Shown: positions 4,863-26,435, numbered from the stretch's first letter. The stretch is 64,000 bases of DNA from Escherichia coli (GCF_050920415.1 NZ_CP169309.1), one strand, 5' to 3'. Notes: generated from the sequence alone by a model not told the origin. Numbers and translations are program-made.

Positions 4863-4876
4863 TTCCTGACTGATTT

Positions 4877-4901
4877 GTAGGTCGCATAAGGTGCGACCTA
4901 C
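4877..4901. terminator. perfect hairpin (GTAGGTCGCA-loop-TGCGACCTAC), REP-like, between convergent opgB and lgoD
   Basis: Inverted repeat read directly; it lies 15 bp after the opgB stop. Confidence 0.4.
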
Positions 4902-4996
4902 ACACCTTCTCCGGCACACAACACATTATTAAGAAACAAAAAAAACAGCGCCCAACACTTCCCCGGACGCTGCATGGCAACTTTAATAATCTCGCC

Positions 4997-8658: not shown

Positions 8659-8692
8659 ATGCCCGATAACATTTTGCTTATCGGGCATTTTT
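8659..8692 (+). terminator. rho-independent terminator downstream of lgoT
   Basis: 11 bp stem ATGCCCGATAA / TTATCGGGCAT followed by TTTT, read directly. Confidence 0.6.
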
Positions 8693-10503: not shown

Positions 10504-11409
10504 ATGGTACAAAGTATCAATCTTCTTCGAACCAGTGATACTCCTATGGCTTATAGCATCGATATCATCTCCTGCATTACCGAACGATTTATGGCGTTAA
10601 CAGCCACTGAAAAGCGTATCGCACAATTTATTCTTGATGACGTCTCTGCCGCAGTAGAGTTGCCAATTGCTGAGCTGGCACGGTTAACGCAAACCAGTCA
10701 GGCGTCGGTGACGCGTTTTGCCCGTGCACTGGGGTGCAAAGATGTCCGCGAGTTGAAAGTCAAACTGGCGCAGTCACTGGCTGTCGGGCAGCGGTTTATT
10801 CTCGATGTACCGGATCTTGACGGTGTTCAGGGGATCTACGAAGCGATTATTAGCGTGCTGGAAACGCATCGTCGTTCGCTGGATATGAATGCCATCAGCC
10901 AGGCTGTAAGCTGGTTAAGTCAGGCGCGGCAAATTCTTGCGTTAGGAACTGGCGGCGGTTCCACTATCTGTTCACAGGAGATTCAGTACCGTTTATTCCG
11001 TCTGGGGCTACCAGTGGTCAGTCAGAATGATGCCCTGATGATGAGAATGATGTGCTCGGCAGTGATGCCGCAGGATGTGGTGATTGTGCTGTCGCTGGGC
11101 GGTTATACACCGGAAATCATCGAAAGTGCGGCAATCGCCCGTCAGTATGGCGCGCGTGTTATTGCCATTACGCCAGCACAAACACCGCTGGCAGAACAGG
11201 TAGATCTGGTATTGCCGCTGCTGGTTCAGGAGAGTGATTACATCTTTAAACCCACGCCTTCCCGCTACGCGATGTTAGCCATGGTCGATGTACTGGCAAC
11301 GGAACTGGCAATGGCAAATAAAGCGCAGGCGAAAGATCGCCTGCGGCGGATAAAACTGGTGTTAGACAGCCACCGTGGGGGCGCTAACCGCCAGCCACTT
11401 GGCGATTAG
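10504..11409 (+). CDS. RpiR/MurR-family transcriptional regulator (HTH plus SIS sugar-phosphate-binding domain)
   Basis: 301 aa ORF; the domain pattern is recognised by eye. The start is uncertain, with an alternative ATG at 10546. Confidence 0.75.
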   Translation: MVQSINLLRTSDTPMAYSIDIISCITERFMALTATEKRIAQFILDDVSAAVELPIAELARLTQTSQASVTRFARALGCKDVRELKVKLAQSLAVGQRFILDVPDLDGVQGIYEAIISVLETHRRSLDMNAISQAVSWLSQARQILALGTGGGSTICSQEIQYRLFRLGLPVVSQNDALMMRMMCSAVMPQDVVIVLSLGGYTPEIIESAAIARQYGARVIAITPAQTPLAEQVDLVLPLLVQESDYIFKPTPSRYAMLAMVDVLATELAMANKAQAKDRLRRIKLVLDSHRGGANRQPLGD

Positions 11410-11418
11410 CATTGTCGG

Positions 11419-12888
11419 TTATGCTTCTTCAGGTTTGGTGATCACGACACTCTGGTTTTCACGCTCATTGGTGATAATAGCCAAAGCTTCTTCCCGGCTG
11501 ACCTGACTTGCTGGCGTTACCAACGTCACCAGTACGCCAGCGACCAGGCTGCCCAGCACTGACGGAATACACGGGTTACCCCAGTAAGCCAGCCAGTCGG
11601 CATTCATCAGCACCACAATTGACATCACCATACCGCTCACTAACGCCGCCAGCGCGCCCTGCCAGTTAAAGCGTAGCCAGAAGCGACCGAGAATCGAGCA
11701 GATAAACAGCCCGGACATCAGCATCGAAATCATTTTGGTAATGTAGCTGATGATGTCATTAGAGGTCAGAGCAAAGACCAGCGCCAGGCCAATAACAAAG
11801 GTCAACATCCAGCGTGAGTAAGTAATGGCCTTGTCCTCCGGCGGCATTCTGCCGGTAATCATGGTGTAGACGTCGCGCATCATAATCGCCACTGCCGCAA
11901 TGGCATCAGAACTGGCAGAAGACATGGTGGCAGAAAGCCCGGCAATCAGCACCACCAGCCCAAGAATGGCAGGTAAGAAGCTGGTCGCGAACAAGAAGGC
12001 ATAGTTACTGTTTTCCAGATTCGGGTTCATGGTGAACGCCGCCATGCCGATAATGGCAGGCAGAATCGAGAAGAACAGATACAACACGCCAGTAATAACA
12101 AATGAACGCCGTACAGAGGGAACGTCTTTTCCCGAGTAAATACGCTGGCGATAAGATGGTGTGGCCAGTACGCCGACACCAATAACCAGCGCCAGCGAAA
12201 GCGCAGGCAGCACGCCCATTTTATCAATCGCAAACAGGCTCATCGCTTTTGGGTCCATCGCCTGCTCAATCGCACTCCAGCCACCAACGTGAACAACGGC
12301 AAGAATAGCCATTAATATAAAGCCAAAGAACAGAATTAGGGCCTGAATGGTATCGGTCCACACTACCGCCGAATAACCGCCGATAATAACGTAAATCGCA
12401 AAAGCTAAGGCAATAATTAATTTTGCCACCGTAAGATCAATACCTGTTGCCCAGGCAAGATACATACTTCCACCTAATATATGCGCCCCCAGCCAGCCAA
12501 TAGAGGCAATAAATATCATCATGCCGACAATGTTTTTAATTAAATGACTGCCGCCAGTATAATAAGATATTTCTTCACTCATGGTCATAAAACGTAATTT
12601 ACGTACCGGTGCAAACAGCCACGCCACCAGTAATATACCTACGGCCCCACCGACGCCATAAAGCATTCCGGCCCAGCCATTGCTGTAGCCAAAGCCCACT
12701 GCGCCCATACTGGAACCCGTGCCAACCATCGTGGCAACGGTTGACCCCAGCGTCAGAAACAGCGGCAGCGAACGCCCGCCCAGCAGAAAATCTTCTCCGC
12801 TTTTCTGATTACGAGAAACAAACCAACCAAGCCAAATCATGGCGATGGCATAAATAATAAAGCCGACTAAAAAGATATGACTGTTCAT
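11419..12888 (-). CDS. sodium:solute symporter (SSS) family transporter
   Basis: 489 aa ORF, highly hydrophobic with multiple TM segments, PutP/PanF-like N-terminus, and an AGGA Shine-Dalgarno before the ATG. Confidence 0.8.
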   Translation of the reverse strand: MNSHIFLVGFIIYAIAMIWLGWFVSRNQKSGEDFLLGGRSLPLFLTLGSTVATMVGTGSSMGAVGFGYSNGWAGMLYGVGGAVGILLVAWLFAPVRKLRFMTMSEEISYYTGGSHLIKNIVGMMIFIASIGWLGAHILGGSMYLAWATGIDLTVAKLIIALAFAIYVIIGGYSAVVWTDTIQALILFFGFILMAILAVVHVGGWSAIEQAMDPKAMSLFAIDKMGVLPALSLALVIGVGVLATPSYRQRIYSGKDVPSVRRSFVITGVLYLFFSILPAIIGMAAFTMNPNLENSNYAFLFATSFLPAILGLVVLIAGLSATMSSASSDAIAAVAIMMRDVYTMITGRMPPEDKAITYSRWMLTFVIGLALVFALTSNDIISYITKMISMLMSGLFICSILGRFWLRFNWQGALAALVSGMVMSIVVLMNADWLAYWGNPCIPSVLGSLVAGVLVTLVTPASQVSREEALAIITNERENQSVVITKPEEA

Positions 12889-12990
12889 AATTCACATCCT
12901 GCCAGTAGAGAGAGAATAATGTAAGAGTTCCCGGAGTGCTGAATGTATTCAGCACTCAATTGCGGTCTGTTTTTTTAATTCTTAAATTTA

Positions 12991-13386
12991 TTAGCGGGTC
13001 GCGTTATAACAGGTCACATCGACTTCGACTTTACAATCGACAACCAGATCAGCCACACAACAAATACGTGCAGGCGGATTCTCGCCAAAAAATTCTCTGA
13101 ATACTTTATTAAATGACTGGAAATAGCGGGCGTCGGTCAGGATCACTTTCACGTGAACCACATCCGCCAGGCTATAACCGGCTTCAGTCATGATGTCGAC
13201 ACAGTTTTGGATCGCCAGTCGTGACTGTTCAACGATTCCGCCTTCTACCACTTCACCGTTTTTCATGGGTGTTTGCCCGGAGACGTACAGCCAGCCGCCC
13301 GCCTCAACCGCCCTGGCAAAAGGCAAATGCTGCCCGCCAGTGCCTGTTCCACCTTCCGTACCGTAACGTTTAATGCTCATATTCAC
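12991..13386 (-). CDS. RidA/YjgF/TdcF-family enamine/imine deaminase
   Basis: 131 aa ORF with a conserved Rid-family C-terminal region; the stop is 3 bp from the start of the upstream deacylase gene. Confidence 0.8.
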   Translation of the reverse strand: MNMSIKRYGTEGGTGTGGQHLPFARAVEAGGWLYVSGQTPMKNGEVVEGGIVEQSRLAIQNCVDIMTEAGYSLADVVHVKVILTDARYFQSFNKVFREFFGENPPARICCVADLVVDCKVEVDVTCYNATR

Positions 13387-13389
13387 TCC

Positions 13390-14841
13390 TTAATGTGAGG
13401 TCTGCCGGCGCAGGAAGCGTCCCGCACGGCCTGTAATATGTTTATCGCGACCATAGCTCATAACGCCGTTCACCATCACCGCCTCAATGCCATCTGCCGG
13501 GCGTTTGGGATCAGAAAAGCTGGCAACATCACGAATGGTTTGTGGATCGAACAACACCAGGTCCGCAAAATAGCCAACTTTCACCAGTCCACGCTGGGGC
13601 AGGCGAAAACGGCTGGCAGAAAGCCCGGTCATTTTGTGGATAGCCGTGGTCAGAGGGAATAAACCTTCATCACGGCAATAGTGACCCAGCACGCGAGGGA
13701 AGGCGCCCCATAAACGTGGATGCGGCATGGGATCATTGGGCAGGCCGTCAGAGCCAATCATACTGACTGGATAACTCAATACTCTGCGGACGTCGCGCTC
13801 GTCCATGTTGTAATAGATAGCCCCGGCAGGCATTAGCAGCTTCGCGGCCTCCAGCATACTCATCTGCCAGTCGATGGCGATTTGCGCCAGTGTTTTCCCG
13901 GCCTGCTGCGGATGTGTTTGTGACCAGGTGATCACAATATCGAATTCGTCGGTGACTTGTTTGAGATCCAGCGTTGAAGAGCTGGCTGAGTAAGGGTAGA
14001 CATCGCAGCCAATTTCCTGGTGTTGACGCATTTGGTCAAAAAAAGCCAACGTTTCTTTTGTCCGCCCCCAGTTTTTCGCCCCGGCGCATTTATGGTGGGA
14101 AACCACGACAGGCACTTTGCCATGACGCCCAATACGAAACGCCTCATCCAGGGCATCGAGAATCGGTTCAAATTCAGAACGCAGATGGGTGGTATAAACG
14201 CCCTTCTCACCGGCTAATTCTTCCGCCAGCGCCATGACTTCTTCGGTAGTCGCCTGAAATGCTGTGGCATAGGCCAGCCCGGAACTTAACCCCAGCGCCC
14301 CCTGACTCAACGCCAGACGTAAGTCGGCGCGCATGGCGGCAATTTCATCCGCCGTCGCCGGGCGAAACAGGTCGTCCATATGGTTATTACGCAGCGCCGT
14401 ATGACCAATCAGCGTGCCAACGTTCAGTGACGGCCTGGCTGCTTCCACTGCCTGGGCATAGCTTTCAACGGTAGGATAAATAAAGTGCTCCGCTTCCCCC
14501 AACAGATTCATCGGGTCAGGAACTTCGCCTTTCATTTTCGCCGACGCCGCACTGATCCCGCAGTTACCGACAATCACCGTGGTGATCCCCTGGCTGATTT
14601 TTGGCAGATATTCCGGGATGCGAATAACGTTGATATCGTCATGGGTATGAACGTCGATAAACCCTGGTGCCAGCACCCGCCCTTCCCCGTCAATGACCTG
14701 CTGCGCCGTAACGTTAAGCGCAGGGGCAATATCGACAATCCGATCACCTGTTATTGCCACGTCACCGCGAAATTCAGGGCCGCCGCTACCGTCGATAACG
14801 GTCACATTTTTGATTAACCAGTCAACCTGCATGTTCGTCAC
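13390..14841 (-). CDS. N-acyl-D-amino-acid deacylase (D-aminoacylase) family amidohydrolase
   Basis: 483 aa ORF with a metal-dependent amidohydrolase N-terminus (DGxG...PGFIDVHTHDD) typical of D-aminoacylases. Confidence 0.8.
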   Translation of the reverse strand: MTNMQVDWLIKNVTVIDGSGGPEFRGDVAITGDRIVDIAPALNVTAQQVIDGEGRVLAPGFIDVHTHDDINVIRIPEYLPKISQGITTVIVGNCGISAASAKMKGEVPDPMNLLGEAEHFIYPTVESYAQAVEAARPSLNVGTLIGHTALRNNHMDDLFRPATADEIAAMRADLRLALSQGALGLSSGLAYATAFQATTEEVMALAEELAGEKGVYTTHLRSEFEPILDALDEAFRIGRHGKVPVVVSHHKCAGAKNWGRTKETLAFFDQMRQHQEIGCDVYPYSASSSTLDLKQVTDEFDIVITWSQTHPQQAGKTLAQIAIDWQMSMLEAAKLLMPAGAIYYNMDERDVRRVLSYPVSMIGSDGLPNDPMPHPRLWGAFPRVLGHYCRDEGLFPLTTAIHKMTGLSASRFRLPQRGLVKVGYFADLVLFDPQTIRDVASFSDPKRPADGIEAVMVNGVMSYGRDKHITGRAGRFLRRQTSH

Positions 14842-15032
14842 TCCATTTCTGCAATGGTGACAAGTTAACCATTTACAAGGATGAAAAACAGTGGAAAACT
14901 ACGCAAAACCCAGATGATTTTATGATACTTTTATTCATAAACTATAAGATAAATAAACTAAATATTTATATTTCATTTAGTTACAAATGATACTCACATC
15001 CGATACGGTGAAAAACTTAAAAGGTAAATGTT

Positions 15033-16253
15033 ATGAAATACCACTCAGAACCTCTGGTTCCCCATAAATCGGCCCTGATGCAAATGCCCGCAAATCTCCT
15101 TGCCGAAGATGTCTGTTTACCTGCCGCGATCATTAAAAAGCAGGCCCTGGAGAACAACATTACGTGGATGCAGCGTTATGCTGACGCGCGCGGCGTTTCG
15201 CTGGCACCGCACGGTAAAACCACCATGACGCCGTGGATTTTTCAGGCGCAGCAGGCGGCTGGTGCCTGGGCAATAGGTGTCGGTAGCGCATGGCAGGCTG
15301 GTGCGGCAATGGCGAGCGGTATTCAGCGAGTGCTGATGGTTAACCAGCTGGTCGGCAAGGCGAATATGCAGTTGATTGCCCGGTTGCAACAACATTACCC
15401 GACGGTCGATTTTATCTGCTGTATCGACAGCATTGAGAACGCCCGCGCTTTGTCTGCCTTTTTTGCCAGTCAGCAACAGACACTGAACGTGATGATTGAG
15501 CTGGGTGTTCCCGGCGGACGCTGTGGTTGCCGCTCAACGGATGCCGCACTGGCACTGGCTAAACAGGCGGCCCAATTACCAGGGCTACGTCTGCGCGGGC
15601 TTGAGTTATATGAAGGTGTTTTACACGGTGACGATCCACAACCGCAGGTAGAAGCTCTGCTGCGGGATGCCGCACAACTGGCCTGTGATATGGCAAGTCT
15701 GGTTGATGGCGAGTTTATTCTCACCGGAGCAGGCACGGTCTGGTATGACGTGGTGTGCAATATCTGGCTGGCGGCAGAAAAGCCTGATAACTGCCGCATT
15801 GTTATTCGCCCTGGCTGCTACATCACTCACGACACCGGGATCTACGACGCGGCACAACAACAGTTGCTTGCCCGCGATCCTGTGGCCTGCGATCTTGCAG
15901 GCGATCTCACATCTGCGCTGGAACTGGTCGCCATGGTGCAATCGGTGCCGGAAGCTGATCGTGCGGTGGTAAATTTTGGTAAGCGTGATTGCGCCTTCGA
16001 CGCCGGACTGCCGCAACCAGTCGCCCACTACCGCAACGGCAAATCACTGGCATTTGATCCACAGGCGATTCGCAGTACAGGTATTATGGATCAGCACTGC
16101 ATGTTGCAACTGTCAGCTAATAGCGACGTGCAAGTGGGGGATATTCTGGTGTTTGGCACATCGCATCCGTGCCTGACCTTCGACAAATGGAAAACGTTGT
16201 TATTGGCTGATGACGACTACAACGTACTGGCAGAGCTGGATACGCTGTTTTGA
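15033..16253 (+). CDS. PLP-dependent enzyme of the alanine-racemase fold (DSD1-like D-serine or D-threo-hydroxy-amino-acid dehydratase/aldolase type)
   Basis: 406 aa ORF with an N-terminal region containing the HGKT lysine motif characteristic of fold-type III PLP enzymes; divergent from the deacylase-RidA-transporter operon. Confidence 0.7.
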   Translation: MKYHSEPLVPHKSALMQMPANLLAEDVCLPAAIIKKQALENNITWMQRYADARGVSLAPHGKTTMTPWIFQAQQAAGAWAIGVGSAWQAGAAMASGIQRVLMVNQLVGKANMQLIARLQQHYPTVDFICCIDSIENARALSAFFASQQQTLNVMIELGVPGGRCGCRSTDAALALAKQAAQLPGLRLRGLELYEGVLHGDDPQPQVEALLRDAAQLACDMASLVDGEFILTGAGTVWYDVVCNIWLAAEKPDNCRIVIRPGCYITHDTGIYDAAQQQLLARDPVACDLAGDLTSALELVAMVQSVPEADRAVVNFGKRDCAFDAGLPQPVAHYRNGKSLAFDPQAIRSTGIMDQHCMLQLSANSDVQVGDILVFGTSHPCLTFDKWKTLLLADDDYNVLAELDTLF

Positions 16254-16311: not shown

Positions 16312-17322
16312 TCAGCTACTTATGGATCGAATATCATCATAGATTGACTGGCTGATCTCTACCCCCTGTTGCTCACTGCGCAATCGTGCCTGGTAGCGAC
16401 GTTCTCCCGGCAGGCGCGCGCCCTGAGCCTGCATCTGACTAAACAGCGTTTCCGCCCTTGCCAGATGCCTCCCTGCATCCTCACCAAGAAAACGCTGCGG
16501 ATCGAGTGCCAGGATCAACTCTCCACCATACGGCAAACCACCTGCACCGTTATCCCACGCAAGAGACTCAGCACTGGTCATATCGCCAATCAGTGGTCCC
16601 GCAATCAGCTCCACCATCGCTGCCAGTGCCGAACCTTTATGACCGCCGAAGGTTAACATTGCTCCGTCCAACACAGCTTGTGGATCGGTGGTGGCATTGC
16701 CATGGCTGTCGATCCCCCAACCTTCAGGAAGTGATTTCCCGGCTCGCTGATGTAACTGAATCTCCCCGCGTGCCGCCGCACTGGTCGCCATATCAAAAAT
16801 AAATGGCGGCAGCTTGTCGCGCGGCCAACCAAACGCGATTGGGTTAGTACCAAAAAGAGGTTTGCCCCCCCCTTTCGGCGCAACCCAGGCATGGCTTGGC
16901 GTGGTCGCCAGCGCCACCAGTCCGGCTTCAGTCAGCGGTTCAACATCCGCAAATAAGGCGGAGTAGTGAACACAATGATTAATTGCCAGTGCTGCAATCC
17001 CGCACTGACGCGTTTTCTCGATCAGTAACGGTAGTGCCTGCTGATAAGCCAACAGCGAATAGCCACCTTTGGCATCGGCCTTAACGATTGCCGGAGCCTG
17101 AGATTCCACTGTCGGCAGAGCATCGGCAGAGACTTTCCCTTTTCGCAGCGTGTCAACAATCCCCAGCAGTCGCCATAAACCGTGCGAGGCACAACCGTCG
17201 CGCTCCCCGGCGGTAACGTTTTTCGCGATCACCACTGCATGTTGCTCACTAAATCCGTTACTAATGAGCGCATGATAGGCTAGTGCGTAAGCCTCTGATA
17301 ACGAGAGGATTACTCTATCCAT
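16312..17322 (-). CDS. Ldh_2-family (malate/L-lactate dehydrogenase-like) oxidoreductase, delta1-pyrroline-2-carboxylate or delta1-piperideine-2-carboxylate reductase-like
   Basis: 336 aa ORF resembling the Ldh_2 family, which includes Pyr2C/Pip2C reductases and ureidoglycolate dehydrogenase. Confidence 0.7.
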   Translation of the reverse strand: MDRVILSLSEAYALAYHALISNGFSEQHAVVIAKNVTAGERDGCASHGLWRLLGIVDTLRKGKVSADALPTVESQAPAIVKADAKGGYSLLAYQQALPLLIEKTRQCGIAALAINHCVHYSALFADVEPLTEAGLVALATTPSHAWVAPKGGGKPLFGTNPIAFGWPRDKLPPFIFDMATSAAARGEIQLHQRAGKSLPEGWGIDSHGNATTDPQAVLDGAMLTFGGHKGSALAAMVELIAGPLIGDMTSAESLAWDNGAGGLPYGGELILALDPQRFLGEDAGRHLARAETLFSQMQAQGARLPGERRYQARLRSEQQGVEISQSIYDDIRSISS

Positions 17323-17333
17323 TTTCTACTCCT

Positions 17334-18935
17334 TTATTCTTCTTCATCCCCGTTAAAGTTCGCCCGAGGAAGACAGGTGTATGCGCCCCAGTAATAAATT
17401 CCCAACGACATCAGCGCGACGACGATAGTATCCCACGGGTGCCCTATAATGCCGCTACCGCCAAAGCTACCCAGCCAGGAAAACAGCATAATCAGGGCAT
17501 AGAAGGCAATAAGCCACAATGAAGATTTAATCTGCTGCGCCAGGCTGACATGCTGAACAGGCACTTTCGACTTGCAACTCACGTAAACCACAAACATTAC
17601 GATTTGTAGCCCCAGCAGCCAGGAAAGCGTCCCCCAACCAGACCAAAAAACAATCAGTGCGGAAATCATAAAAGAGAGTGGGCCAAGCACCGCAAAACCA
17701 CGAACGCGGAACGGGCGCGGCATATCAGGTGCATTACGGCGCAGTCCTGCAGCTGTAACCGGCGCGATGGCGTAGCTCAGTACCAGAGCCGCAGAAACCA
17801 CGCTAATCAATTGCTCCCACGACGGGAACGGTAGCGTCCAGAAGATAGATAAACCAAACGTCAGCCACAGTGCCGGACGTGGAATACCTGACTCCTTATC
17901 GATATGAGTAAAGGTTTTAAAGAATGTCCCCGCCTTCGCCCAGCCATAGATCACACGCGGTGTCGCATTCATGTAAATATTGCCAGTGCCGCTGGGAGAC
18001 ACAATAGCATCACATACCACCATAAATGCCAGCCAGCCCATCCCGAGAGTAATGGCGATATCGCGATATGGCAGCGAATAGTTCTTACTGATCTCCGCCC
18101 AACCACCACTTAGCGATTCAGTTGGAATACTGCCCAAAAAGGCGACCTGCAACAGAACGTAGATGATGGTCGAGAGAATTACCGAGAGGATCAGCGCAAA
18201 TGGGATGGTACGTTGCGGATTTTGCGCCTCGCTGGCTACGGAGATAATCGGTGTCAGTCCAAGGTAAGCGAAGATAATCCCACCCGCGCTAATTGCCGCT
18301 TCCACTCCTGACATACCAAATGGAGCCATACCCTGTATATGCAGATTCTCCGGTTTGAAGAAGGCAAATAACGTTATTACCACCAGCAACGGCACCAGAA
18401 ACTTCAGCACGCTAATAAAATTGTTCGAGCGAGCGAAAGTTTTAACACTGTAGTAGTTCAGGGCAAAAAAGAAGCACAACAGTAAGAACTGCACCACCCA
18501 GCCTAACAGCGTCGGGTCACTACTCCCCGTCTGCGTCAGCGCAGGAAACCAGGCGGCGGCATATTGCCGTGCGGCTACAATCTCAATGGAGATCAGGCTG
18601 GAGAAGGCAATCAGGGTAATAAAACCCAGCAGATAGCCCATCAATTCGCCGTGCGAAAATACCGGGTAACGAATAATACCGCCCGCGCGGGGAAGCGCCG
18701 CCCCCAGTTCGCAGTAAATAATCCCCAGTAGCAGCACCGCAAAACCGCCAATAACCCAGGAAGCAATCCCTGCTGGGCCAGCGATCGATGCGACATGGCT
18801 GGCAGCAAACAGCCAGCCAGAACCGAAAATCGCCCCCAGACCAATAAAGGTCAAGTCGGTGAGCGTTAACTGCTTTTTAAACTTCCCCGACTCAACAACG
18901 ACGGTTTGCGTGCTTTGGGTAGAAGGAATTGTCAT
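17334..18935 (-). CDS. APC-superfamily amino-acid permease
   Basis: Polytopic membrane protein. The start was moved to the internal ATG at 18935 to remove a 40 bp overlap with the upstream gene. Confidence 0.8.
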   Translation of the reverse strand: MTIPSTQSTQTVVVESGKFKKQLTLTDLTFIGLGAIFGSGWLFAASHVASIAGPAGIASWVIGGFAVLLLGIIYCELGAALPRAGGIIRYPVFSHGELMGYLLGFITLIAFSSLISIEIVAARQYAAAWFPALTQTGSSDPTLLGWVVQFLLLCFFFALNYYSVKTFARSNNFISVLKFLVPLLVVITLFAFFKPENLHIQGMAPFGMSGVEAAISAGGIIFAYLGLTPIISVASEAQNPQRTIPFALILSVILSTIIYVLLQVAFLGSIPTESLSGGWAEISKNYSLPYRDIAITLGMGWLAFMVVCDAIVSPSGTGNIYMNATPRVIYGWAKAGTFFKTFTHIDKESGIPRPALWLTFGLSIFWTLPFPSWEQLISVVSAALVLSYAIAPVTAAGLRRNAPDMPRPFRVRGFAVLGPLSFMISALIVFWSGWGTLSWLLGLQIVMFVVYVSCKSKVPVQHVSLAQQIKSSLWLIAFYALIMLFSWLGSFGGSGIIGHPWDTIVVALMSLGIYYWGAYTCLPRANFNGDEEE

Positions 18936-18946
18936 AGTGATGCCCT

Positions 18947-20557
18947 TCAATGAGTCAACAAGGAGGAAATGGCTTCCCGGGTCCACTGGCCGTTAACCAA
19001 GCGCAGCAGGTTTAATGGATTACTGTCCTGCAGCGCAGGCGGTAATAGTGCAGCGGGTGCATTTTGCAGGCATACCGGGCGCAGAAAACGAGTAATGGCC
19101 AGCGTGCCTACGGACGTGCCGCGCGCGTCGGTGGTTGCCGGGAACGGACCACCGTGTACCATGGCATCGCAAACCTCGACGCCGGTGGGATAGCCATTGA
19201 ACAATACGCGTCCGGCTTTATCAGCCAACAATGGCAATAAACGACCAGCCAGTTGCCGGTCATCCTCATCCGCCTGAAGTGTGGCAGTAAGTTGCCCTTG
19301 CAGAGCGTTAATTACCTGCAACAACTCCGCTTCATCAGCGGCTTCAACCACAATCGCGAGCGGCCCGAACACTTCCTCCTGCAACAGAGGATCTTTTTCA
19401 AGTATGTTTGCCGCCTGAGCCTGATAGAGACGAGTTTCTGCTCGTCCGGCTTGATGATTATCGTCCCCCGCCAAACACCGAATAGTCGGATGTTCTGCCA
19501 GTTTCTCCACGCTGTGGCGATAGTGCTCAAGCGTGGAGGCGTTTAGCATGAGTTGCGGTGTGGCGGCATTCACTTTCTCAACCAGTTGCTGTAAAAAGTC
19601 CGCGTTTTTCTCCCCTTTCAGCAACACAATCAGGCCTGGTTTAGTGCAGAACTGTCCACATCCCAACGTGAACGACGCGACTAAATCGCGGGCCAGCGTA
19701 TCGGCACGTACTGATAGCGCCTGCGGCAGAATGAAAAAGGGATTGAGAGCCGACATTTCGGCAAAAACCGGTATCGGCTGTGGACGCTGTTGGGCCAAAC
19801 GAAAGAGCGCCATGCCACCACGTAATGAGCCGGTAAAACCCACCGCCTGAATTGCGGGATGTTTCACCAGTTCAGCACCGATATCAGTACCGAAAATCAT
19901 ATTGAATACGCCTGCGGGCATGGCGCATTTAGTCACGGCACGAGCGATCGCTGATGCGATAATTTCTGCCGTTGCCATATGCCCAGGATGCGCTTTCACA
20001 ACTACCGGGCATCCTGCAGCCAGTGCCGCTGCTGTATCACCACCGGCGATAGAAAAAGCGAGTGGAAAGTTGCTGGCACCAAATACCGCCACCGGCCCGA
20101 GAGCCGTTTTATACTGGCGCAAATCCGGTCGAGGCAGAGGCTGACGCTCCGGCAACGCAGTATCAATTCTTACCTCAAACAGATCGCCCCGACGTAATAA
20201 CCCGGCAAACATGCGCATCTGCCCGCTGGTTCTTGCCCGCTCTCCCTGTAAACGCGCCAGGGGTAACGCTGTCTCCTGATGTGCCGTAGCGAACAGTTCG
20301 TCGCCTGCTGCATCAAGTTCATCGGCGATGGTTTCTAAAAAATCGGCACGTTGCCCGGCATTGGTCAGTGAATAGCACACAAAAGCCTGCTGCGCCGCAA
20401 TAGCCGCCTGCTCGGCCTCCTCCACGGAGGCCGGGTAAAAACGTTGCCCGGTAGGTTCGCCATCCTGCGCTCGCAGGCTGACCAGCGACGGTTCACCGCT
20501 GGCAACACGTTGCCCGGCGATGAACTGTTGCCCGGTGAAAGGGAAAGTTTCAGTCAT
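18947..20557 (-). CDS. NAD(P)-dependent aldehyde dehydrogenase, 2,5-dioxovalerate (alpha-ketoglutarate semialdehyde) dehydrogenase-like
   Basis: 536 aa ALDH-superfamily protein with catalytic Cys context (GQFCTKPG) and a length typical of KGSADH. Confidence 0.8.
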   Translation of the reverse strand: MTETFPFTGQQFIAGQRVASGEPSLVSLRAQDGEPTGQRFYPASVEEAEQAAIAAQQAFVCYSLTNAGQRADFLETIADELDAAGDELFATAHQETALPLARLQGERARTSGQMRMFAGLLRRGDLFEVRIDTALPERQPLPRPDLRQYKTALGPVAVFGASNFPLAFSIAGGDTAAALAAGCPVVVKAHPGHMATAEIIASAIARAVTKCAMPAGVFNMIFGTDIGAELVKHPAIQAVGFTGSLRGGMALFRLAQQRPQPIPVFAEMSALNPFFILPQALSVRADTLARDLVASFTLGCGQFCTKPGLIVLLKGEKNADFLQQLVEKVNAATPQLMLNASTLEHYRHSVEKLAEHPTIRCLAGDDNHQAGRAETRLYQAQAANILEKDPLLQEEVFGPLAIVVEAADEAELLQVINALQGQLTATLQADEDDRQLAGRLLPLLADKAGRVLFNGYPTGVEVCDAMVHGGPFPATTDARGTSVGTLAITRFLRPVCLQNAPAALLPPALQDSNPLNLLRLVNGQWTREAISSLLTH

Positions 20558-20572
20558 AATCTCTCCCCCACC

Positions 20573-21514
20573 TCAAAGGCCCACGTCCGGCAGCGCAGGG
20601 CGAGTCGCCAGCGATTTCTCAACGATCGCCACAACCTGGGCACGCGTTTCGCCTTCCAGCGCCAGACGCGGCGGGCGAGTAACCTCACTGCCACGCCCCA
20701 ACAGGGCTTCACACAGCTTGATACACTGCACCAGGTCAGGGCGCGCATCGAGATGTAGCAGTGGCATAAACCAGCGATAGAGCGCCATAGCCTCGGCAAA
20801 ACGCTGTTGTTTTGCCAAACGGAACAACGTCTCACCTTCGCGTGGGAAGGCGTTTGACATCCCGGAAATCCAGCCTTCAGCGCCCACCGCAATGCTCTCA
20901 ACCACGACATCGTCCAGCCCGGCAAACAGCACAAAGCGATCGCCTACCGCATTGCGAAGATCGATAAAGCGCCGGGTATCACCAGAGGAATCTTTAAAGC
21001 AGACGATATTTTCGCAATCAGCTAGTGTTTCCAGGATATCAGGGGTGACATCGTTTTTATAAATCGGAGGGTTGTTATAGACCATGATCGGCAGGTCGGT
21101 CGCCATTGCCACACTGCGGAAGTGCGCTGCAGTTTCATGAGGCTTAGATGAGTAAACCAAAGCAGGCATCACCATAACGCCATCAACACCGACCTTCTCG
21201 GCCTCTTTTGCCATCGTCCGGGCAAAGGCAGTGGTGAACTCAGCAACCCCGGCAATCACCGGAATTTTTCCGCCAGCAGCATCTTTCGCTACTTCGATGA
21301 TTTGCAGTTTTTCCTGAGTGGTAAGTGACGTGTTTTCTCCAACGCTGCCGCACACTACCAGGCCAGAAACCCCATCTTTAACCAAGTTTTTCATCACCGC
21401 ATGTGTGGCATCCAAATCAAGTGAGTAATCACTACGGAACTGAGTGCTAACCGCCGGAAAAACGCCACTCCAGTTAATCGCTTTATTGCTCATCTTTGGT
21501 TTCCTTATTGTCAA
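20573..21514 (-). CDS. DapA/DHDPS-family lyase, candidate delta1-pyrroline-4-hydroxy-2-carboxylate deaminase
   Basis: 313 aa ORF of the dihydrodipicolinate synthase/N-acetylneuraminate lyase family; the specific function is inferred from the neighbouring epimerase, oxidase and KGSADH genes. Confidence 0.75.
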   Translation of the reverse strand: MTIRKPKMSNKAINWSGVFPAVSTQFRSDYSLDLDATHAVMKNLVKDGVSGLVVCGSVGENTSLTTQEKLQIIEVAKDAAGGKIPVIAGVAEFTTAFARTMAKEAEKVGVDGVMVMPALVYSSKPHETAAHFRSVAMATDLPIMVYNNPPIYKNDVTPDILETLADCENIVCFKDSSGDTRRFIDLRNAVGDRFVLFAGLDDVVVESIAVGAEGWISGMSNAFPREGETLFRLAKQQRFAEAMALYRWFMPLLHLDARPDLVQCIKLCEALLGRGSEVTRPPRLALEGETRAQVVAIVEKSLATRPALPDVGL

Positions 21515-21644
21515 TCTGTTGCGTCAATGTGAATTAAAAGTGAATCTTCATTAACAGATTGACCTCTCCTTGCGCTGGCGGCTTGTCGATTTTCTTTCCC
21601 CAGGATGACGAAATTAGCACAATGCCCAGTTGTGATTTGTCGTG

Positions 21645-22472
21645 TTACCCCATCAACGTCATCCGAAAATCACGCGGAGTTGAGCCTGTCATCGCCTTAA
21701 ATTGACGGCTGAACGCACTATGGTCGGTATAACCGCACTGCAAAGCGATATCGGTAATCGGCGTAGTTCCGGCAAGTAACTCGGTGGCCTTTTCCAGTCG
21801 AACTTTGTGGATCATCTGGCGAGGCGTCAGGTGAAAAATCCGCTTACAGTAGCGTTCAATTTGCGCCACAGACATTCCGCTCATTTCAGTCAACTCTTCC
21901 ATAGAGATCGCACGGTAGTAGTGATTGCGAATGTGCTCATCGATGATCGCCAGGCGTTGCCAGGCTGGATGACGCGCATGTGCTTCCTGGAGATCATGTG
22001 AGATCCCCGCCATTCCGATCACACGCCCCTGCATATCGCGCAGTGCCAGTTTCTGCGTCAGACACCAGCCGCGTTCGCGACCGTTATAGAGATGCATCTC
22101 TAGTTGATCACGTAACGCAACCCCTTCGCGTAGCACACGCAGATCCTGTTCGGTATATCCTCGTCCCAATGCAGAAGGGAAAACATCTGCCGATGTCTTC
22201 CCCAGTAGCGATGTCACATTTTTAAACCCGCAGCGTCGCGCCAACGTCATATTGACTAACAGATAACGGGCCTGCATATCCTTAATAAAAAACACCACAT
22301 TAGGAATGGCGTTGAGAAGTGGCGCAATCAGCGCCAGTGCATTTAACAACGCCTGAATATTTTGTGGACGCTGCCGCGCCAGCCCCTCGCAAATCTGACT
22401 AAGTTCATCAACGGCCAGCGCAGTTTCTTCACAAGGGGAAAACTCAAAAGTCTGATGACATATGCTGGACAT
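21645..22472 (-). CDS. AraC-family transcriptional regulator
   Basis: 275 aa ORF with a C-terminal AraC-type double helix-turn-helix; divergent from the epimerase operon. Confidence 0.85.
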   Translation of the reverse strand: MSSICHQTFEFSPCEETALAVDELSQICEGLARQRPQNIQALLNALALIAPLLNAIPNVVFFIKDMQARYLLVNMTLARRCGFKNVTSLLGKTSADVFPSALGRGYTEQDLRVLREGVALRDQLEMHLYNGRERGWCLTQKLALRDMQGRVIGMAGISHDLQEAHARHPAWQRLAIIDEHIRNHYYRAISMEELTEMSGMSVAQIERYCKRIFHLTPRQMIHKVRLEKATELLAGTTPITDIALQCGYTDHSAFSRQFKAMTGSTPRDFRMTLMG

Positions 22473-22783
22473 AGTTGTTCCTCATAGCGATTGAGGATGA
22501 ATGTTTATTAACCTTTGATTAACATGACAAGTACTGAAAGTGCATTTTGCGATCCTTCCGTGTATTTCCACTTTCCGTTGCTCTCACTACTGACGAACGC
22601 TTGTTCCTGGTCTAACACATCACTAACAAAATGATTAATATTAAAAAAACATGACCACTCCTGGTGTCGCGAAATAATTCACTGTGCTGATTTCGTCATT
22701 TCCCTTGCAGAAACCCTTCAAGCGATAAAGTTGCAATTACGCCAGCATTTAGAAACATTTTGTTAACCACATGGAGCCAGAGC

Positions 22784-23731
22784 ATGCATGTTCCTCACCA
22801 AATCACTGAACTCAGGGCTATCGACTCCCATACCGGAGGCGAGCCGACCCGGTTGATTATTGATGGCTTTCCCGATCTCGGTAGCGGCAGCATGGCCGAA
22901 CGGCGCGAACGTTTTACCCGGGAATTTGACTGTTGGCGCAAAGCCATAATTCTTGAGCCACGCGGCAACGACGTGCTGGTCGGCGCGCTACTGTGTGAGC
23001 CGCTTTCCCCTCATGCCACGGCGGGTGTCATCTTTTTCAATAATGCCGGATACCTGAATATGTGTGGGCACGGCACTATCGGGCTTGTTGCCTCACTGGC
23101 CTGGTTGGGTCGTATTAAACCGGGCGTTCATCGCATTGAAACCCCTGTCGGAGATGTAAACGCCACATTGCATGATGATGGCAGTGTGTCAGTTGAAAAT
23201 GTTCCGGCCTGGCGCTGGCAAAAACAGGTAAGTGTGGAAACAGCGGTGGGTACAGTTACAGGAGATATCGCCTGGGGTGGTAACTGGTTTTTTCTTATTA
23301 ATGATCATCCATTTGATATTGTGCCGGAACAAATCCCGCAGTTAACTGAATACGCCTGGGCGGTACGGGAAGGGCTCGATAATGCGGGGATCGTCGGTGA
23401 AAACGGTGGCATTATCGATCATATCGAACTTTTTGCCGATGACGATCAGGCGGATAGCCGTAGCTTCGTCCTTTGCCCAGGTAAAGCGTGGGATCGTTCT
23501 CCCTGTGGCACAGGCACCAGCGCCAAGCTGGCCTGTCTGGCAGAAGACGGAAAACTCGCCCCCGGCGATAGCTGGCGCCAGGCCAGTATTATTGGTAGCC
23601 AGTTTACGGCTCACTATACCCGCCATGGCGAGAAGATTATCCCCACCATTCGTGGAGAAGCCTGGGTATGCGGCGACAATCGCCTGCTCCTTAATCCGGA
23701 CGATCCCTTCTGCTGGGGGATTAGCCTGTGA
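22784..23731 (+). CDS. proline racemase family enzyme, 4-hydroxyproline 2-epimerase-like
   Basis: Two catalytic Cys motifs (MCGHG and SPCGTGTSA) typical of the proline racemase / 4-Hyp epimerase family; GGAG Shine-Dalgarno before the ATG at 22784. Confidence 0.85.
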
Positions 23732-24837
23732 ACAGCACGGAGGTCATTGTCATCGGCGCAGGCATCATCGGGGCCTCCTGCGCATGGCAACTGGCAAAAC
23801 GTGGTGTGAGAGTCACGCTAATTGACAACGGCCGAGCCGGAGCGACAGCTGCAGGAATGGGGCATCTGGTCTGTATGGATGATGATCCCGCAGAACTGAC
23901 GCTCTCTGCCTGGTCGCTGGAACTGTGGCGCACGTTGACGCCTCAGTTACCGGAAAGCTGTGCCTGGTGCGGCTGTGGCACATTGTGGCTGGCGGAAACA
24001 CCAGAAGAACTGGAAATTGCCCGAGAGAAGCAGCGACGTCTGGCATCGCATGAGGTCAACAGCGAAATGCAAAGCGCTGCACAATTGGCTGAGCGGGAAG
24101 TTATGCTACGCCCGGGGTTATCCGGCGGGTTATGGGTGCCGGGCGATGGCATCGTCTACGCCCCAAACGTTGCCCGTTGGTTTATTGCCAATGCAGGCGA
24201 TAAGCTGACACATCTGGTTGATCCGGCCATTCGTCTGGAAGAACCTACAGTGACATTACAGAGCGGTCGCCAATTACGCGCCGATGCGATCGTCGTCGCC
24301 TGTGGTCTGGGGGCCAATACGTTACTGGGGGAGCCATGGCTGCGCGCGAAGAAAGGCCAACTTGCGATTACCGATCGCTATGGTCCACTAGTCAATCACC
24401 AACTGGTTGAACTTGGCTACGGCGCCAGTGCTCACGGCAGCGGCACGTCAGTGGCCTTTAATGTGCAGCCTCGTCCCACCGGACAACTGCTGATTGGCTC
24501 TTCACGTCAGTTCGATAACGAGGATCGCGAACTGGACCTTCCACTCCTGGCCGCGATGCTGTCCAGAGCGCAACACTTTCTGCCGTCTCTGGCAACGCTC
24601 AATATTATTCGTTGCTGGAGCGGTTTTCGCGCCGCCTCGCAGGATGGTAATCCCCTTCTCGGCCCGCATCCTTCCCGTGCTGGCGTCTGGCTGGCTCTTG
24701 GTCATGAAGGGCTTGGAGTGACTACTGCCCCCGCCAGCGCGTCGCTGTTAGTCGCACAGTTGCTGGGTGAACGCAGCCTCGTATCTCCTGCCCCCTGGCT
24801 ACCCGCAAGACTTATCTCCCTGGAGGCCAGCGCATGA
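23728..24837 (+). CDS. FAD-dependent oxidoreductase (DadA/HcnC/OoxB-like), candidate D-hydroxyproline dehydrogenase beta subunit
   Basis: N-terminal FAD dinucleotide-binding motif [14 protein letters not shown]; the GTG start overlaps the upstream stop, suggesting translational coupling. Confidence 0.8.
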
Positions 24838-25097
24838 GTGGCACCATTAGAATTTTTATTGCCGGACAGCCCTGGTTTGTCCCGACGGGTATTAGCGTAG
24901 CGGCGGCACTGGCCTTAACTGATAACCCCATTACGCGCCTTTCGGTGAGCGGGCAACCACGTACGCCCTTCTGCGGCATGGGCGTTTGCCAGGAGTGTCG
25001 GGTGAGCGTTAATGGTCGTCGGGTACCCGGTTGTCAGACCCTTTGCCAGCCAGACATGCAGATTGAAAGGAGCGGATATGCAGACCTTACAGTGTGA
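24834..25097 (+). CDS. small [2Fe-2S]-binding subunit (HcnA / sarcosine-oxidase-alpha N-terminus-like)
   Basis: 87 aa ORF with a Cys cluster (CGMGVCQEC...GC); ATGA overlap with the upstream gene. Confidence 0.65.
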   Translation: MSGTIRIFIAGQPWFVPTGISVAAALALTDNPITRLSVSGQPRTPFCGMGVCQECRVSVNGRRVPGCQTLCQPDMQIERSGYADLTV

Positions 25098-26343: not shown

Positions 26344-26370
26344 ATCCCTGATAATAATTTGGCGTTAAGG

Positions 26371-26435
26371 GCTTATCTGGTCTGGTAAATCTTACAAATT
26401 CAATATATTGCAGAATCTATCCAGGCCAGATAAGC
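26371..26435. repeat. 15 bp imperfect inverted repeat (GCTTATCTGGTCTGG ... CCAGGCCAGATAAGC) at the right boundary of the tsr-btsT island
   Basis: Read directly; one mismatch between arms, about 35 nt spacer. Confidence 0.4.

What the first reader, a model, noticed from the sequence alone, without database searches (positions are those of the whole stretch)
12934..12957. Near-perfect 24 bp palindrome upstream of the SSS-transporter operon
GAGTGCTGAAT-G-TATTCAGCACTC lies 46-69 bp upstream of the transporter start codon and just downstream of the RidA stop. It is a candidate operator for a dimeric regulator (possibly the adjacent RpiR-family protein) or a terminator/attenuator between the two minus-strand genes.
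Basis: seen in the sequence. Interest (0 to 1): 0.3.

Follow-up and report, generated by a model that had tools for sequence, protein, structure and literature searches.

The report
Conserved stem-loop before a transporter gene
The palindrome is real and conserved, and most likely acts as a stable RNA hairpin in the untranslated gap between an enzyme gene and a transporter gene of an E. coli sugar-acid (oxidised-chitin) utilisation cluster; it is an ordinary kind of element, with the twist that its core also resembles the binding site of the global regulator Cra.

Summary
In detail: 11-nt perfect arms around a 2-nt centre at 12934-12957. It is single-copy and invariant in about 193 E. coli carriers, and about 0.07 such repeats are expected per window.

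The genes form a compact ong-type cluster for catabolism of GlcNAc1A, an oxidised-chitin product (RpiR/OngR, SSS/OngIT, RidA/OngD, deacylase/OngB, deaminase/OngC). The palindrome lies in the 102-nt RidA–SSS spacer.

Evidence for an RNA stem-loop on the operon's sense strand (10 bp plus tetraloop, about −15 to −17.5 kcal/mol):
- In Klebsiella and Serratia-like relatives the stem is kept through one compensatory change (U–A / U·G / C–G) and G·U wobbles that pair only on the sense strand.
- The loop and flanks diverge freely.
- Other genera carry unrelated hairpins at the same junction.

It has no U-tract, so it is not a canonical terminator. I infer a leaky attenuator or mRNA-stability barrier at the enzyme/transporter junction.

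The RpiR-operator idea is not supported. No related motif occurs in the conserved divergent promoter region. The regulator is conserved in genera that lack the palindrome. In Pseudoalteromonas the transporter unit is not OngR-regulated.

A serious rival remains. The core GCTGAAT-NN-ATTCAGC matches the Cra/FruR box at 14 of 16 positions but lacks the central CG in every lineage.

Interest is low to moderate.

The parts
12934..12957 (-). The palindrome. On the sense (minus) strand it reads 5'-GAGUGCUGAA-UACA-UUCAGCACUC-3', a 10-bp stem with a 4-nt loop.
   Evidence: -17.5 kcal/mol with the E. coli-specific CCG/CGG extension; z = -5.4. RNAalifold predicts exactly this helix, and only this helix, in the Group A leader alignment. 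All 100 stem cells pair on the sense strand; pair 4 is UA/UG/CG, pair 1 is GC/GU, pair 9 is AU/GU.
12938..12953 (.). 16-bp core GCTGAAT-GT-ATTCAGC, resembling the Cra/FruR box gcTGAAtCGaTTCAgc at 14 of 16 positions. Both mismatches are the central CG.
   Evidence: only hit in the window with 2 or fewer mismatches; 0.08 expected. Motif from PMC5888115. All operators I could read are CG-centred.
12958..12990 (-). AU-rich, unstructured 33-nt stretch between the RidA stop codons (TAA TAA) and the stem-loop.
   Evidence: Poorly conserved (column identity about 0.60).
12889..12933 (-). 45-nt leader between the stem-loop and the SSS start codon. It is a G-poor, CU-rich tract followed by the nearly invariant block ACUGGCAGGAUGUGAAUU, which contains the Shine-Dalgarno AGGA (12900-12897).
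   Evidence: RBS block identity 0.96; tract identity 0.55. No sigma-70-like promoter on the minus strand here.
11419..12888 (-). Sodium:solute symporter gene (OngIT-like; 57-58% identical to the P. prydzensis ortholog).
12991..13386 (-). RidA-family gene (OngD-like; PGAP start at 13380).
13390..14841 (-). N-acyl-D-amino-acid deacylase family gene (OngB-like GlcNAc1A deacetylase).
14842..15032 (.). Divergent regulatory region between the deacylase and deaminase genes. It has constant length and three invariant blocks, and is the likely site of the main promoter(s) and the OngR operator.
15033..16253 (+). D-serine-dehydratase-like amino acid deaminase gene (OngC-like).
10504..11409 (+). MurR/RpiR-family regulator gene (OngR-like), convergent with the SSS gene.

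Best explanation
The palindrome encodes a stable RNA stem-loop (10 bp, UACA loop) on the minus strand, inside the 102-nt untranslated spacer between the RidA (ongD-like) and sodium:solute symporter (ongIT-like) genes of an ong-type cluster for catabolism of N-acetyl-glucosaminic acid (GlcNAc1A). What is shown: the structure is thermodynamically strong; it is conserved in Escherichia, Klebsiella and two Serratia-like lineages while its loop and flanks diverge; and every substitution in the stem keeps pairing on the sense strand. What is inferred: no promoter-like site lies in the 45 nt between the hairpin and the start codon, so the hairpin is transcribed as part of the RNA that carries the transporter cistron. 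There it marks the junction between two expression units, the enzymes upstream and the transporter downstream. The most likely action is post- or co-transcriptional. It could act as a barrier to 3'-to-5' exonucleases that stabilises the upstream deacylase-RidA message after cleavage or termination downstream. It could also act as a weak, U-tract-less attenuator that lowers transporter expression relative to the enzymes. It is not a canonical intrinsic terminator and not the operator of the neighbouring RpiR-family regulator.
For: Structure: -14.8 to -17.5 kcal/mol in E. coli, K. pneumoniae and Serratia sp., z = -3.6 to -5.4. RNAalifold independently returns this single helix. Conservation pattern: stem column identity is 0.91, against 0.55-0.60 in the flanks and 0.59 in the loop. 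Covariation: pair 4 is U-A (Escherichia), U.G (two Serratia-like lineages) and C-G (Klebsiella). Pairs 1 and 9 show G.U. All 100 cells pair on the sense strand, whereas 7 of 10 rows lose 1-2 pairs on the antisense strand or as a DNA palindrome. All 1-3 differences in the outer four pairs keep pairing, P about 0.03-0.10 for three random substitutions. Same place, different sequence: Pluralibacter, with a homologous leader, has a different GC-rich hairpin there. Most other Enterobacterales have unrelated hairpins, some REP-like, in this spacer. In 34 spacers of at least 90 nt the median z is -2.65 and 76% fall below -2. CTG...CAG-cored hairpins of at least 6 pairs, with loops of 3-11 nt, occur in 16 of 37 long spacers against about 2% of shuffles. 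Context: the deacylase-RidA-SSS order is conserved in all 51 loci. In P. prydzensis, RNA-seq places an operon boundary exactly at ongD|ongIT (PMC9537276), and its spacer also carries U-tract-less hairpins. No promoter-like site lies on the sense strand around or after the hairpin.
Against: The covariation sample is small: about 4 lineages, one fully compensatory pair, and 49 of 500 shuffles do as well. Seven of ten stem pairs never vary, so sequence as well as structure may be constrained. The invariant core matches the Cra operator far better than chance. A DNA-level role therefore cannot be dismissed, and a palindromic operator also looks like a hairpin. There is no U-tract, and no transcript-end or half-life data exist for any enterobacterial ong cluster, so the precise function (stability barrier versus attenuator versus 5' protection) is inferred only. 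Homology of the hairpin beyond Group A is positional and not demonstrated: the covariance model finds only Group A, Pluralibacter weakly and two Serratia loci marginally. Marine relatives with 16-45-nt spacers manage without any hairpin.
Confidence: 0.55

Rival explanations
1. Cra/FruR-type (LacI-family) operator. The 16-bp core GCTGAAT-NN-ATTCAGC would be bound by the global carbon-flux regulator Cra, or a close paralogue. Bound Cra would repress or roadblock transcription into the transporter gene (and, in Klebsiella, the kinase and aldolase genes). This could be the sole function or act in addition to the RNA hairpin.
For: 14 of 16 positions match the published Cra motif gcTGAAtCGaTTCAgc (PMC5888115). 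It is the only hit in 64 kb with 2 or fewer mismatches, with 0.08 expected, and P is about 1e-4 in shuffled spacers. The outer GCTGAA/TTCAGC is invariant in 9 of 10 Group A rows. The site lies 46-69 nt upstream of the start codon, within the 30-140 nt range typical of LacI-family sites (PMC4052901). It makes physiological sense: the pathway ends in KDG-6-P and KDPG aldolase, Cra controls Entner-Doudoroff and glycolytic genes in Escherichia, and the transporter unit is not under OngR control in the model organism.
Against: The central CG is among the most informative positions of the ChIP-exo motif and is present in 1,173 of 1,303 LacI-family motifs. It is absent in every lineage (AC, TC, TA, TT), and the centre drifts like a loop. 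Every experimentally used Cra operator I could read is CG-centred. The palindrome extends 4 bp beyond the Cra core on each side, and those outer pairs evolve by pairing-preserving changes, which a 16-bp protein site does not explain. No sigma-70 promoter is evident nearby. Other enterobacterial genera have no Cra-like box in this spacer. No LacI-family gene is linked to the cluster.
Confidence: 0.25
2. Operator of the adjacent RpiR-family regulator (OngR-like). A dimer or tetramer would bind the palindrome to control the transporter gene.
For: The regulator gene is adjacent. RpiR-family proteins bind inverted repeats (general knowledge). The palindrome lies upstream of a gene of the same pathway.
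Against: No copy, half-site or relative of the palindrome occurs in the divergent deacylase/deaminase region. That region has its own blocks, invariant across at least 17 genera. The regulator is about 71-85% identical in enterobacterial genera whose spacer lacks the palindrome. In P. prydzensis, OngR represses ongOT-1 and ongCRBD but not ongIT-kdgK-ongA. Perfect 10-11-bp arms with wobble-type substitutions are more typical of hairpins than of operators.
Confidence: 0.04
3. Plus-strand element: a terminator for antisense or read-through transcription from the RpiR gene side, or a tiny antisense RNA. This is suggested by a promoter-like site at 12891-12920, the hairpin, and a T7 run at 12970-12976.
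For: A promoter-like TTCACA-18-AATAAT lies on the plus strand. The plus-strand fold is -33.3 kcal/mol, z = -3.55, over 121 nt. A T7 run lies 12 nt after the stem.
Against: The T-run is 12 nt from the stem and is absent in Klebsiella and the Serratia-like relatives. The promoter-like hexamers overlap the conserved RBS and start-codon block and are explained by it. The G.U wobbles become A.C mismatches on the plus strand.
Confidence: 0.03
4. Functionless relic: a decayed terminator, a former mobile-repeat insertion, or a former operator that persists by drift.
For: This spacer is a hotspot for insertion of unrelated hairpins, some REP-like, in other genera. Relatives with short spacers need no hairpin.
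Against: Stem identity is 0.91 while the flanks are 0.55-0.60 across Escherichia, Klebsiella and Serratia-like lineages, and all changes preserve pairing. It is single-copy and not a dispersed repeat.
Confidence: 0.08

Closest known systems
Intercistronic mRNA stem-loops that set differential expression within operons (for example the REP hairpins between malE and malF in E. coli; named from general knowledge, not tested here)
   Same: A stable hairpin in an untranslated spacer between an upstream soluble-protein gene and a downstream membrane-transporter gene. It has no U-tract. The structure is conserved more than the sequence across genera. REP-like elements occupy the same spacer in other genera.
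   Different: It is single-copy and not a member of the REP/BIME repeat family. It has a short 10-bp stem with a tetraloop. No stability or abundance data exist for this locus.
ongD|ongIT operon boundary of the Pseudoalteromonas prydzensis ACAM 620 ong cluster (PMC9537276)
   Same: Orthologous genes in the same order (RidA 81-84%, SSS 57-58%, deacylase 53-54% identity). The palindrome sits at the junction that RNA-seq defined there as the end of ongCRBD and the start of ongIT-kdgK-ongA. That spacer also has strong hairpins without U-tracts.
   Different: The spacer sequences are unrelated. The E. coli spacer is much shorter (102 nt against 144-420 nt) and has no recognisable internal promoter. 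E. coli lacks kdgK and ongA after the transporter gene, and the regulator gene sits elsewhere in the cluster.
Cra (FruR) operator, LacI/GalR family
   Same: A 16-bp even palindrome with TGAA/TTCA half-sites and GC flanks, matching at 14 of 16 positions, at a position typical for LacI-family sites.
   Different: It lacks the central CG in all lineages. It is embedded in a longer 24-bp palindrome whose outer pairs covary. No promoter is evident and no binding data exist.
Rho-independent (intrinsic) terminator
   Same: A GC-containing stem-loop shortly downstream of a stop codon. Analogous hairpins in Entomohabitans and Pluralibacter are followed by U-rich tracts.
   Different: In E. coli the stem is followed by CGGGAACUCUUAC, with no U-tract, and the scan finds no terminator here. 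In Klebsiella the first U-run starts 9 nt after the stem.

Membership tests
Intrinsic (Rho-independent) terminator | Stable GC-containing stem-loop at the end of a transcription unit | tested here: met
   10-bp stem, -15 to -17.5 kcal/mol, 33 nt after the RidA stop codon.
Intrinsic (Rho-independent) terminator | U-tract immediately (0-2 nt) 3' of the stem on the transcribed strand | tested here: not met
   The sense strand continues CGGGAACUCUUAC. The terminator scan finds nothing here in E. coli or K. pneumoniae.
Intrinsic (Rho-independent) terminator | Transcript 3' ends map to the site | not testable with these tools
   No Term-seq or RNA-seq data are available for this island.
Cra/FruR operator (LacI family) | Even 16-bp palindrome with TGAA / TTCA half-sites (gcTGAAtCGaTTCAgc) | tested here: met
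   GCTGAATGTATTCAGC matches 14 of 16 positions; 0.08 expected per window.
Cra/FruR operator (LacI family) | Central CG step (high-information positions; hinge-helix contact in the family) | tested here: not met
   The centre is AC/GT in E. coli and TC, TA or TT in relatives, never CG. All operators I could read are CG-centred. 1,173 of 1,303 family motifs have CG.
Cra/FruR operator (LacI family) | Position relative to a promoter or start codon (30-140 nt upstream) | tested here: inconclusive
   At 46-69 nt upstream of the ATG it fits the range, but no sigma-70-like promoter is detectable on the sense strand.
Cra/FruR operator (LacI family) | Binding by Cra, released by fructose-1-phosphate | not testable with these tools
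   Needs EMSA or ChIP.
Operator of the cluster's RpiR-family regulator (OngR-like) | The same motif present at the regulator's main target promoter(s) | tested here: not met
   No copy or half-site occurs in 14842-15032 or anywhere else in the window. The conserved blocks there are unrelated.
Operator of the cluster's RpiR-family regulator (OngR-like) | The motif co-occurs with the regulator across genomes | tested here: not met
   The regulator is present at about 71-85% identity in many enterobacterial genera whose spacer lacks the palindrome.
Operator of the cluster's RpiR-family regulator (OngR-like) | The downstream gene is regulated by the regulator | tested here: not met
   From the literature only: ongIT-kdgK-ongA expression is unchanged in the P. 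prydzensis ongR deletion mutant (PMC9537276). This has not been tested in E. coli.
REP/BIME dispersed palindromic repeats | Many copies per genome sharing a consensus | tested here: not met
   One locus per genome in E. coli. The '2 places' per genome are the self-match on both strands.
Conserved structured cis-RNA (stem-loop under selection) | Base pairs maintained by compensatory or wobble changes while unpaired positions diverge | tested here: met
   100% of cells pair; there is one compensatory pair and two wobble pairs; the loop and flanks are 55-60% identical against 91% for the stem. Statistical support is weak (49 of 500 shuffles).
Any described Rfam family | Covariance-model match at or near the gathering score | tested here: not met
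   Only chance-level hits, E > 4 and bit scores far below the gathering scores.

The most novel reading that the evidence does not exclude
The element is a dual-use palindrome. As DNA it would be a non-canonical (CG-less) Cra-type operator or roadblock that ties uptake of the oxidised-chitin sugar acid GlcNAc1A to the cell's glycolytic-flux sensor in Escherichia and Klebsiella. As RNA it would be a stability or attenuation hairpin. The two constraints together would explain why both the Cra-like core and the extra outer base pairs are conserved.
Probability: 0.15. Interest if true: 0.45.

Novelty: new member of a known kind. Interest (0 to 1): 0.22.

Why it matters
If the main reading is right, this is one more example of how bacteria uncouple the expression of enzymes and a membrane transporter encoded on one gene string by placing a hairpin at the junction. 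That is useful for annotating and engineering the ong (oxidised-chitin) pathway in enteric bacteria, but it is not surprising.

The context may be of more practical value than the hairpin itself. A minority of E. coli strains (194 of 5,426 complete genomes) carry a compact version of a pathway so far characterised only in marine bacteria.

If the Cra-like reading holds, it would add an accessory, horizontally acquired catabolic unit to the Cra regulon through a site that breaks the family's central-CG rule.

Tried and rejected
1. Second copies or half-sites of the palindrome in the window and island promoters: none.
2. Dispersed-repeat (REP-like) membership in E. coli: rejected, single copy.
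3. E. coli population variation for covariation analysis: uninformative, because the 40 nt are identical in all carriers.
4. Metagenome scan anchored on the RBS block, to gather unbiased variants: 21 contigs but only one new stem variant.
5. Covariance model from Group A, to find remote homologues in 51 loci: it finds only Group A, Pluralibacter (41 bits) and two Serratia loci at E about 1-2. Homology to the hairpins of other genera is therefore not demonstrated.
6. Rfam: no family.
7. Canonical terminator on either strand: rejected. The plus-strand T7 run is E. coli-specific.
8. Internal promoter. The only candidate is an extended -10-like TGTTATAAC inside the RidA 3' end. It is largely explained by conserved Cys-Tyr-Asn codons and is TGTTTTAAC in K. 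pneumoniae, so it was left as unverified. A K. pneumoniae promoter-like site overlapping the loop is not conserved.
9. SD-sequestering structure downstream of the hairpin: not supported by RNAalifold.
10. Cra-like boxes in the spacers of other genera: none.
11. A LacI-family gene linked to the cluster in Group A genomes: none.
12. A table of Cra sites for a weight matrix: not obtainable. The Shimada paper is not held and no supplements are held for the ChIP-exo paper.
13. K. pneumoniae genome-wide TSS table searched for spacer and promoter fragments: no hit, and the stored file is truncated.
14. CRP, KdgR and NagC motifs, considered from memory only: no resemblance in spacing or half-site. Not formally tested.

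Full report
**Observation.** The sequence at 12934-12957 is GAGTGCTGAATGTATTCAGCACTC. It is an inverted repeat with two perfect 11-nt arms and a 2-nt centre. Perfect inverted repeats of this size are expected about 0.07 times per 64-kb window and occur four times. Two of the other three lie between convergent genes (opgB|lgoD and lgoT|tsr). This is the only one I placed between two co-directional genes. The palindrome is unique in the window, with no relaxed copy or extra half-site beyond chance.

**Where it is.** The window is E. coli chromosome, 100% identical to strain MFDS1022581. The locus lies in an accessory island between tsr and btsT, present in 194 of 5,426 complete genomes. The local genes are:
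- a MurR/RpiR regulator (10504-11409, +);
- a sodium:solute symporter (11419-12888, −);
- a RidA protein (12991-13386, −);
- an N-acyl-D-amino-acid deacylase-family amidohydrolase (13390-14841, −);
- a divergent D-serine-dehydratase-like deaminase (15033-16253, +).

This is the gene set of the ong cluster, shown experimentally in Pseudoalteromonas prydzensis ACAM 620 to catabolise GlcNAc1A, the C1-oxidised product of LPMO action on chitin. The components there are OngB deacetylase, OngC deaminase, OngD RidA, OngIT SSS transporter and OngR repressor (PMC9537276). P. prydzensis loci were among the relatives I retrieved: RidA 81-84%, SSS 57-58%, deacylase 53-54% and regulator 44-45% identical. 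The paper also reports ong clusters in Klebsiella and Serratia.

**Comparative anatomy of the spacer.** A protein-anchored scan of one genome per species returned 53 loci. The deacylase-RidA-SSS order is kept in all 51 loci that include RidA. The RidA-SSS spacer ranges from 16 nt to 420 nt.
- **Group A** (Escherichia sp., K. oxytoca, K. grimontii, K. pneumoniae, Serratia sp. AKBS12, plus metagenomic variants) has a spacer of about 100 nt carrying a clearly homologous hairpin at the same distance from the start codon (43-45 nt).
- **Pluralibacter** has a homologous leader (41 bits to the Group A covariance model), but a different GC-rich hairpin sits there.
- **Other Enterobacterales** have unrelated hairpins. 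Often a REP-like element follows the RidA stop, and there is a second hairpin nearer the transporter gene.
- **Marine taxa and a few enterics** have spacers of 16-45 nt and no hairpin.
- **All long spacers together:** across 34 spacers of at least 90 nt, folding energy is consistently lower than for shuffles (median z = −2.65; 76% below −2).

**RNA or DNA?** Within Group A, column identity is 0.91 in the stem, 0.59 in the 4-nt loop and 0.55-0.60 in the flanks. The ribosome-binding block is 0.96 identical. Stem pair 4 is U–A in Escherichia, U·G in two Serratia-like lineages and C–G in Klebsiella. Pair 1 is G–C or G·U, and pair 9 is A–U or G·U. All 100 stem cells pair on the sense (minus) strand. 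On the antisense strand, or viewed as a DNA palindrome, 7 of 10 rows lose one or two pairs. RNAalifold predicts this helix and nothing else in the leader. The hairpin alone is worth −14.8 to −17.5 kcal/mol.

This evidence is coherent but thin. It rests on roughly four lineages and three or four substitution events. 49 of 500 column shuffles do as well. A simulation gives P≈0.03-0.10 that three random substitutions in the outer four pairs would all keep pairing.

**Not a canonical terminator.** On the sense strand the stem is followed by CGGGAACUCUUAC. The scan finds no terminator in E. coli or K. pneumoniae. The plus-strand T7 run, 12 nt from the stem, is E. coli-specific. Analogous hairpins in Entomohabitans and Pluralibacter are followed by U-rich tracts, so a decayed or weak terminator ancestry is plausible.

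No σ70-like promoter lies on the sense strand near or after the hairpin. An extended −10-like TGTTATAAC inside the RidA 3′ end is mostly explained by conserved codons. I therefore infer that the transporter cistron is expressed from RNA that contains the hairpin.

**The RpiR-operator idea.** The divergent deacylase/deaminase region has a constant length of 191-195 nt. It carries three blocks that are invariant across at least 17 genera: TGAATAAAAGTATCA, TTTTGCGTAGTTTTCCACTGTTTT and CTTGTAAATGGTTAAC. None resembles the palindrome. The regulator is about 71-85% identical in enterobacterial genera that lack the palindrome. In P. prydzensis, RNA-seq and RT-qPCR put ongD at the end of the ongCRBD operon. 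There ongIT heads a separate unit (ongIT-kdgK-ongA) whose expression is unchanged in the ongR deletion mutant. In Klebsiella and Serratia the SSS gene is likewise followed by a ketodeoxy-sugar kinase (DGOK family) and a KDPG aldolase. E. coli has lost these two genes from the cluster.

**A rival I did not expect.** The invariant core GCTGAAT-NN-ATTCAGC matches the Cra (FruR) box gcTGAAtCGaTTCAgc at 14 of 16 positions (motif from PMC5888115). It is the only site in the window with 2 or fewer mismatches, with 0.08 expected. A match this good arises in about 1 in 10,000 shuffled spacers. Its position fits LacI-family practice, and Cra control of an Entner-Doudoroff-feeding uptake unit would make sense.

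Several points count against it:
- Both mismatches are the central CG. It is among the most informative positions of the ChIP-exo motif and is the consensus centre in 1,173 of 1,303 family motifs.
- The CG is present in every experimentally used operator I could read: fruB O1 and O2, aceBAK, P. putida fruB and the synthetic consensus.
- The four Group A lineages have AC, TC, TA and TT at the centre, never CG.
- The palindrome extends four pairs beyond the Cra core, and those pairs evolve by pairing-preserving changes.
- Other genera have no Cra-like box in the spacer.
- No LacI-family gene is linked to the cluster.

A pure Cra site explains the core but not the centre or the outer stem. A pure hairpin explains the stem and loop but leaves the core match as a coincidence of roughly 1% after allowing for the number of motifs one might recognise (my estimate). 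A dual role cannot be excluded.

**Verdict.** The palindrome is real, conserved and under selection for pairing. The best-supported reading (about 0.55) is an RNA stem-loop on the operon strand at the enzyme/transporter junction of an ong-type cluster. It would act as a stability barrier and/or a weak attenuator. The exact action is inferred, not shown. A Cra-type operator, alone or in addition, is the main rival (about 0.25). The RpiR operator, a plus-strand element and a functionless relic are minor. This is a new member of a known kind of element, and interest is low to moderate.

**Side observations.**
- The cluster is identified as an enterobacterial ong cluster present in a minority of E. 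coli.
- A different, apparently undescribed two-hairpin leader lies upstream of the transporter gene in at least 12 other genera.
- The divergent promoter region has invariant blocks that are the natural candidates for the OngR operator.

Noticed in passing
window 10504-16253: The five genes form a compact enterobacterial version of the ong cluster for GlcNAc1A (oxidised-chitin product) catabolism, characterised so far only in the marine bacterium Pseudoalteromonas prydzensis (PMC9537276). The cluster is in an accessory island between tsr and btsT, found in only 194 of 5,426 complete E. coli genomes. Unlike Klebsiella and Serratia, it lacks the kinase and KDPG-aldolase genes after the transporter gene.
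   Followed up: partly
window 14842-15032: The divergent deacylase/deaminase regulatory region has a constant length (191-195 nt) and three blocks invariant across at least 17 genera: TGAATAAAAGTATCA, TTTTGCGTAGTTTTCCACTGTTTT and CTTGTAAATGGTTAAC. These are the natural candidates for the main promoters and the OngR (RpiR-family) operator.
   Followed up: partly
L008:4900-5003 and the equivalent region in L010, L013, L014, L017, L019, L020, L023, L024, L025, L040, L051: Twelve other enterobacterial genera share a different, roughly 90-nt conserved leader upstream of the transporter gene. It has a covarying hairpin (GGCAC..GTGCC / GGCAT..ATGCC / GGCCTG..CAGGCC) followed by a nearly invariant AACGGGUUUCCUGU-AUG-U7-CAGGCGGCU, which can form either a short terminator-like hairpin plus U7 or a longer hairpin with a U-rich loop. 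There is no Rfam match. It may be an undescribed attenuator.
   Followed up: partly
L013:4797-4900, L017, L040, L051, L014, L019 (first ~50 nt after the RidA stop): REP-like GC-rich palindromes (for example GCCGGATGC...GCATCCGGC and GGCGGATAACGC..GCTTATCCGCC) are inserted just after the RidA stop codon in several genera. This spacer is therefore a recurrent landing site for hairpin elements.
   Followed up: no
E. coli records NZ_CP101233.1 (H6) and NZ_CP032073.1 (H7), region matching window 11400-15000: In these two strains the match is split in two pieces, with an IS3-family transposase annotated beside a second 'sodium:solute symporter family transporter' fragment. The transporter gene appears to be disrupted by IS3.
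   Followed up: no
window 4876-4902, 8659-8688, 60936-60965: These are the three other perfect inverted repeats with 11-12-nt arms. The first two lie between convergent genes (opgB|lgoD and lgoT|tsr), the usual place for bidirectional terminators. I did not place the third.
   Followed up: no
window 12889-12933 (minus strand): The 26 nt after the hairpin (AACUCUUACAUUAUUCUCUCUCUACU) contain no G and are CU-rich. The same composition, though not the same sequence, holds in Klebsiella and the Serratia-like relatives. This is compatible with a Rho-loading (rut-like) tract or an S1-binding translational enhancer. It is followed by a nearly invariant ACUGGCAGGAUGUGAAUU block that is more conserved than a Shine-Dalgarno alone would require.
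   Followed up: no
window 16312-26400 approx. (from the L001 annotation): The rest of the island encodes a hydroxyproline-type catabolic set: 4-hydroxyproline epimerase, FAD oxidoreductases with a 2Fe-2S subunit, a DHDPS-family protein, an aldehyde dehydrogenase, an APC permease, an Ldh-family oxidoreductase and an AraC regulator.
   Followed up: no
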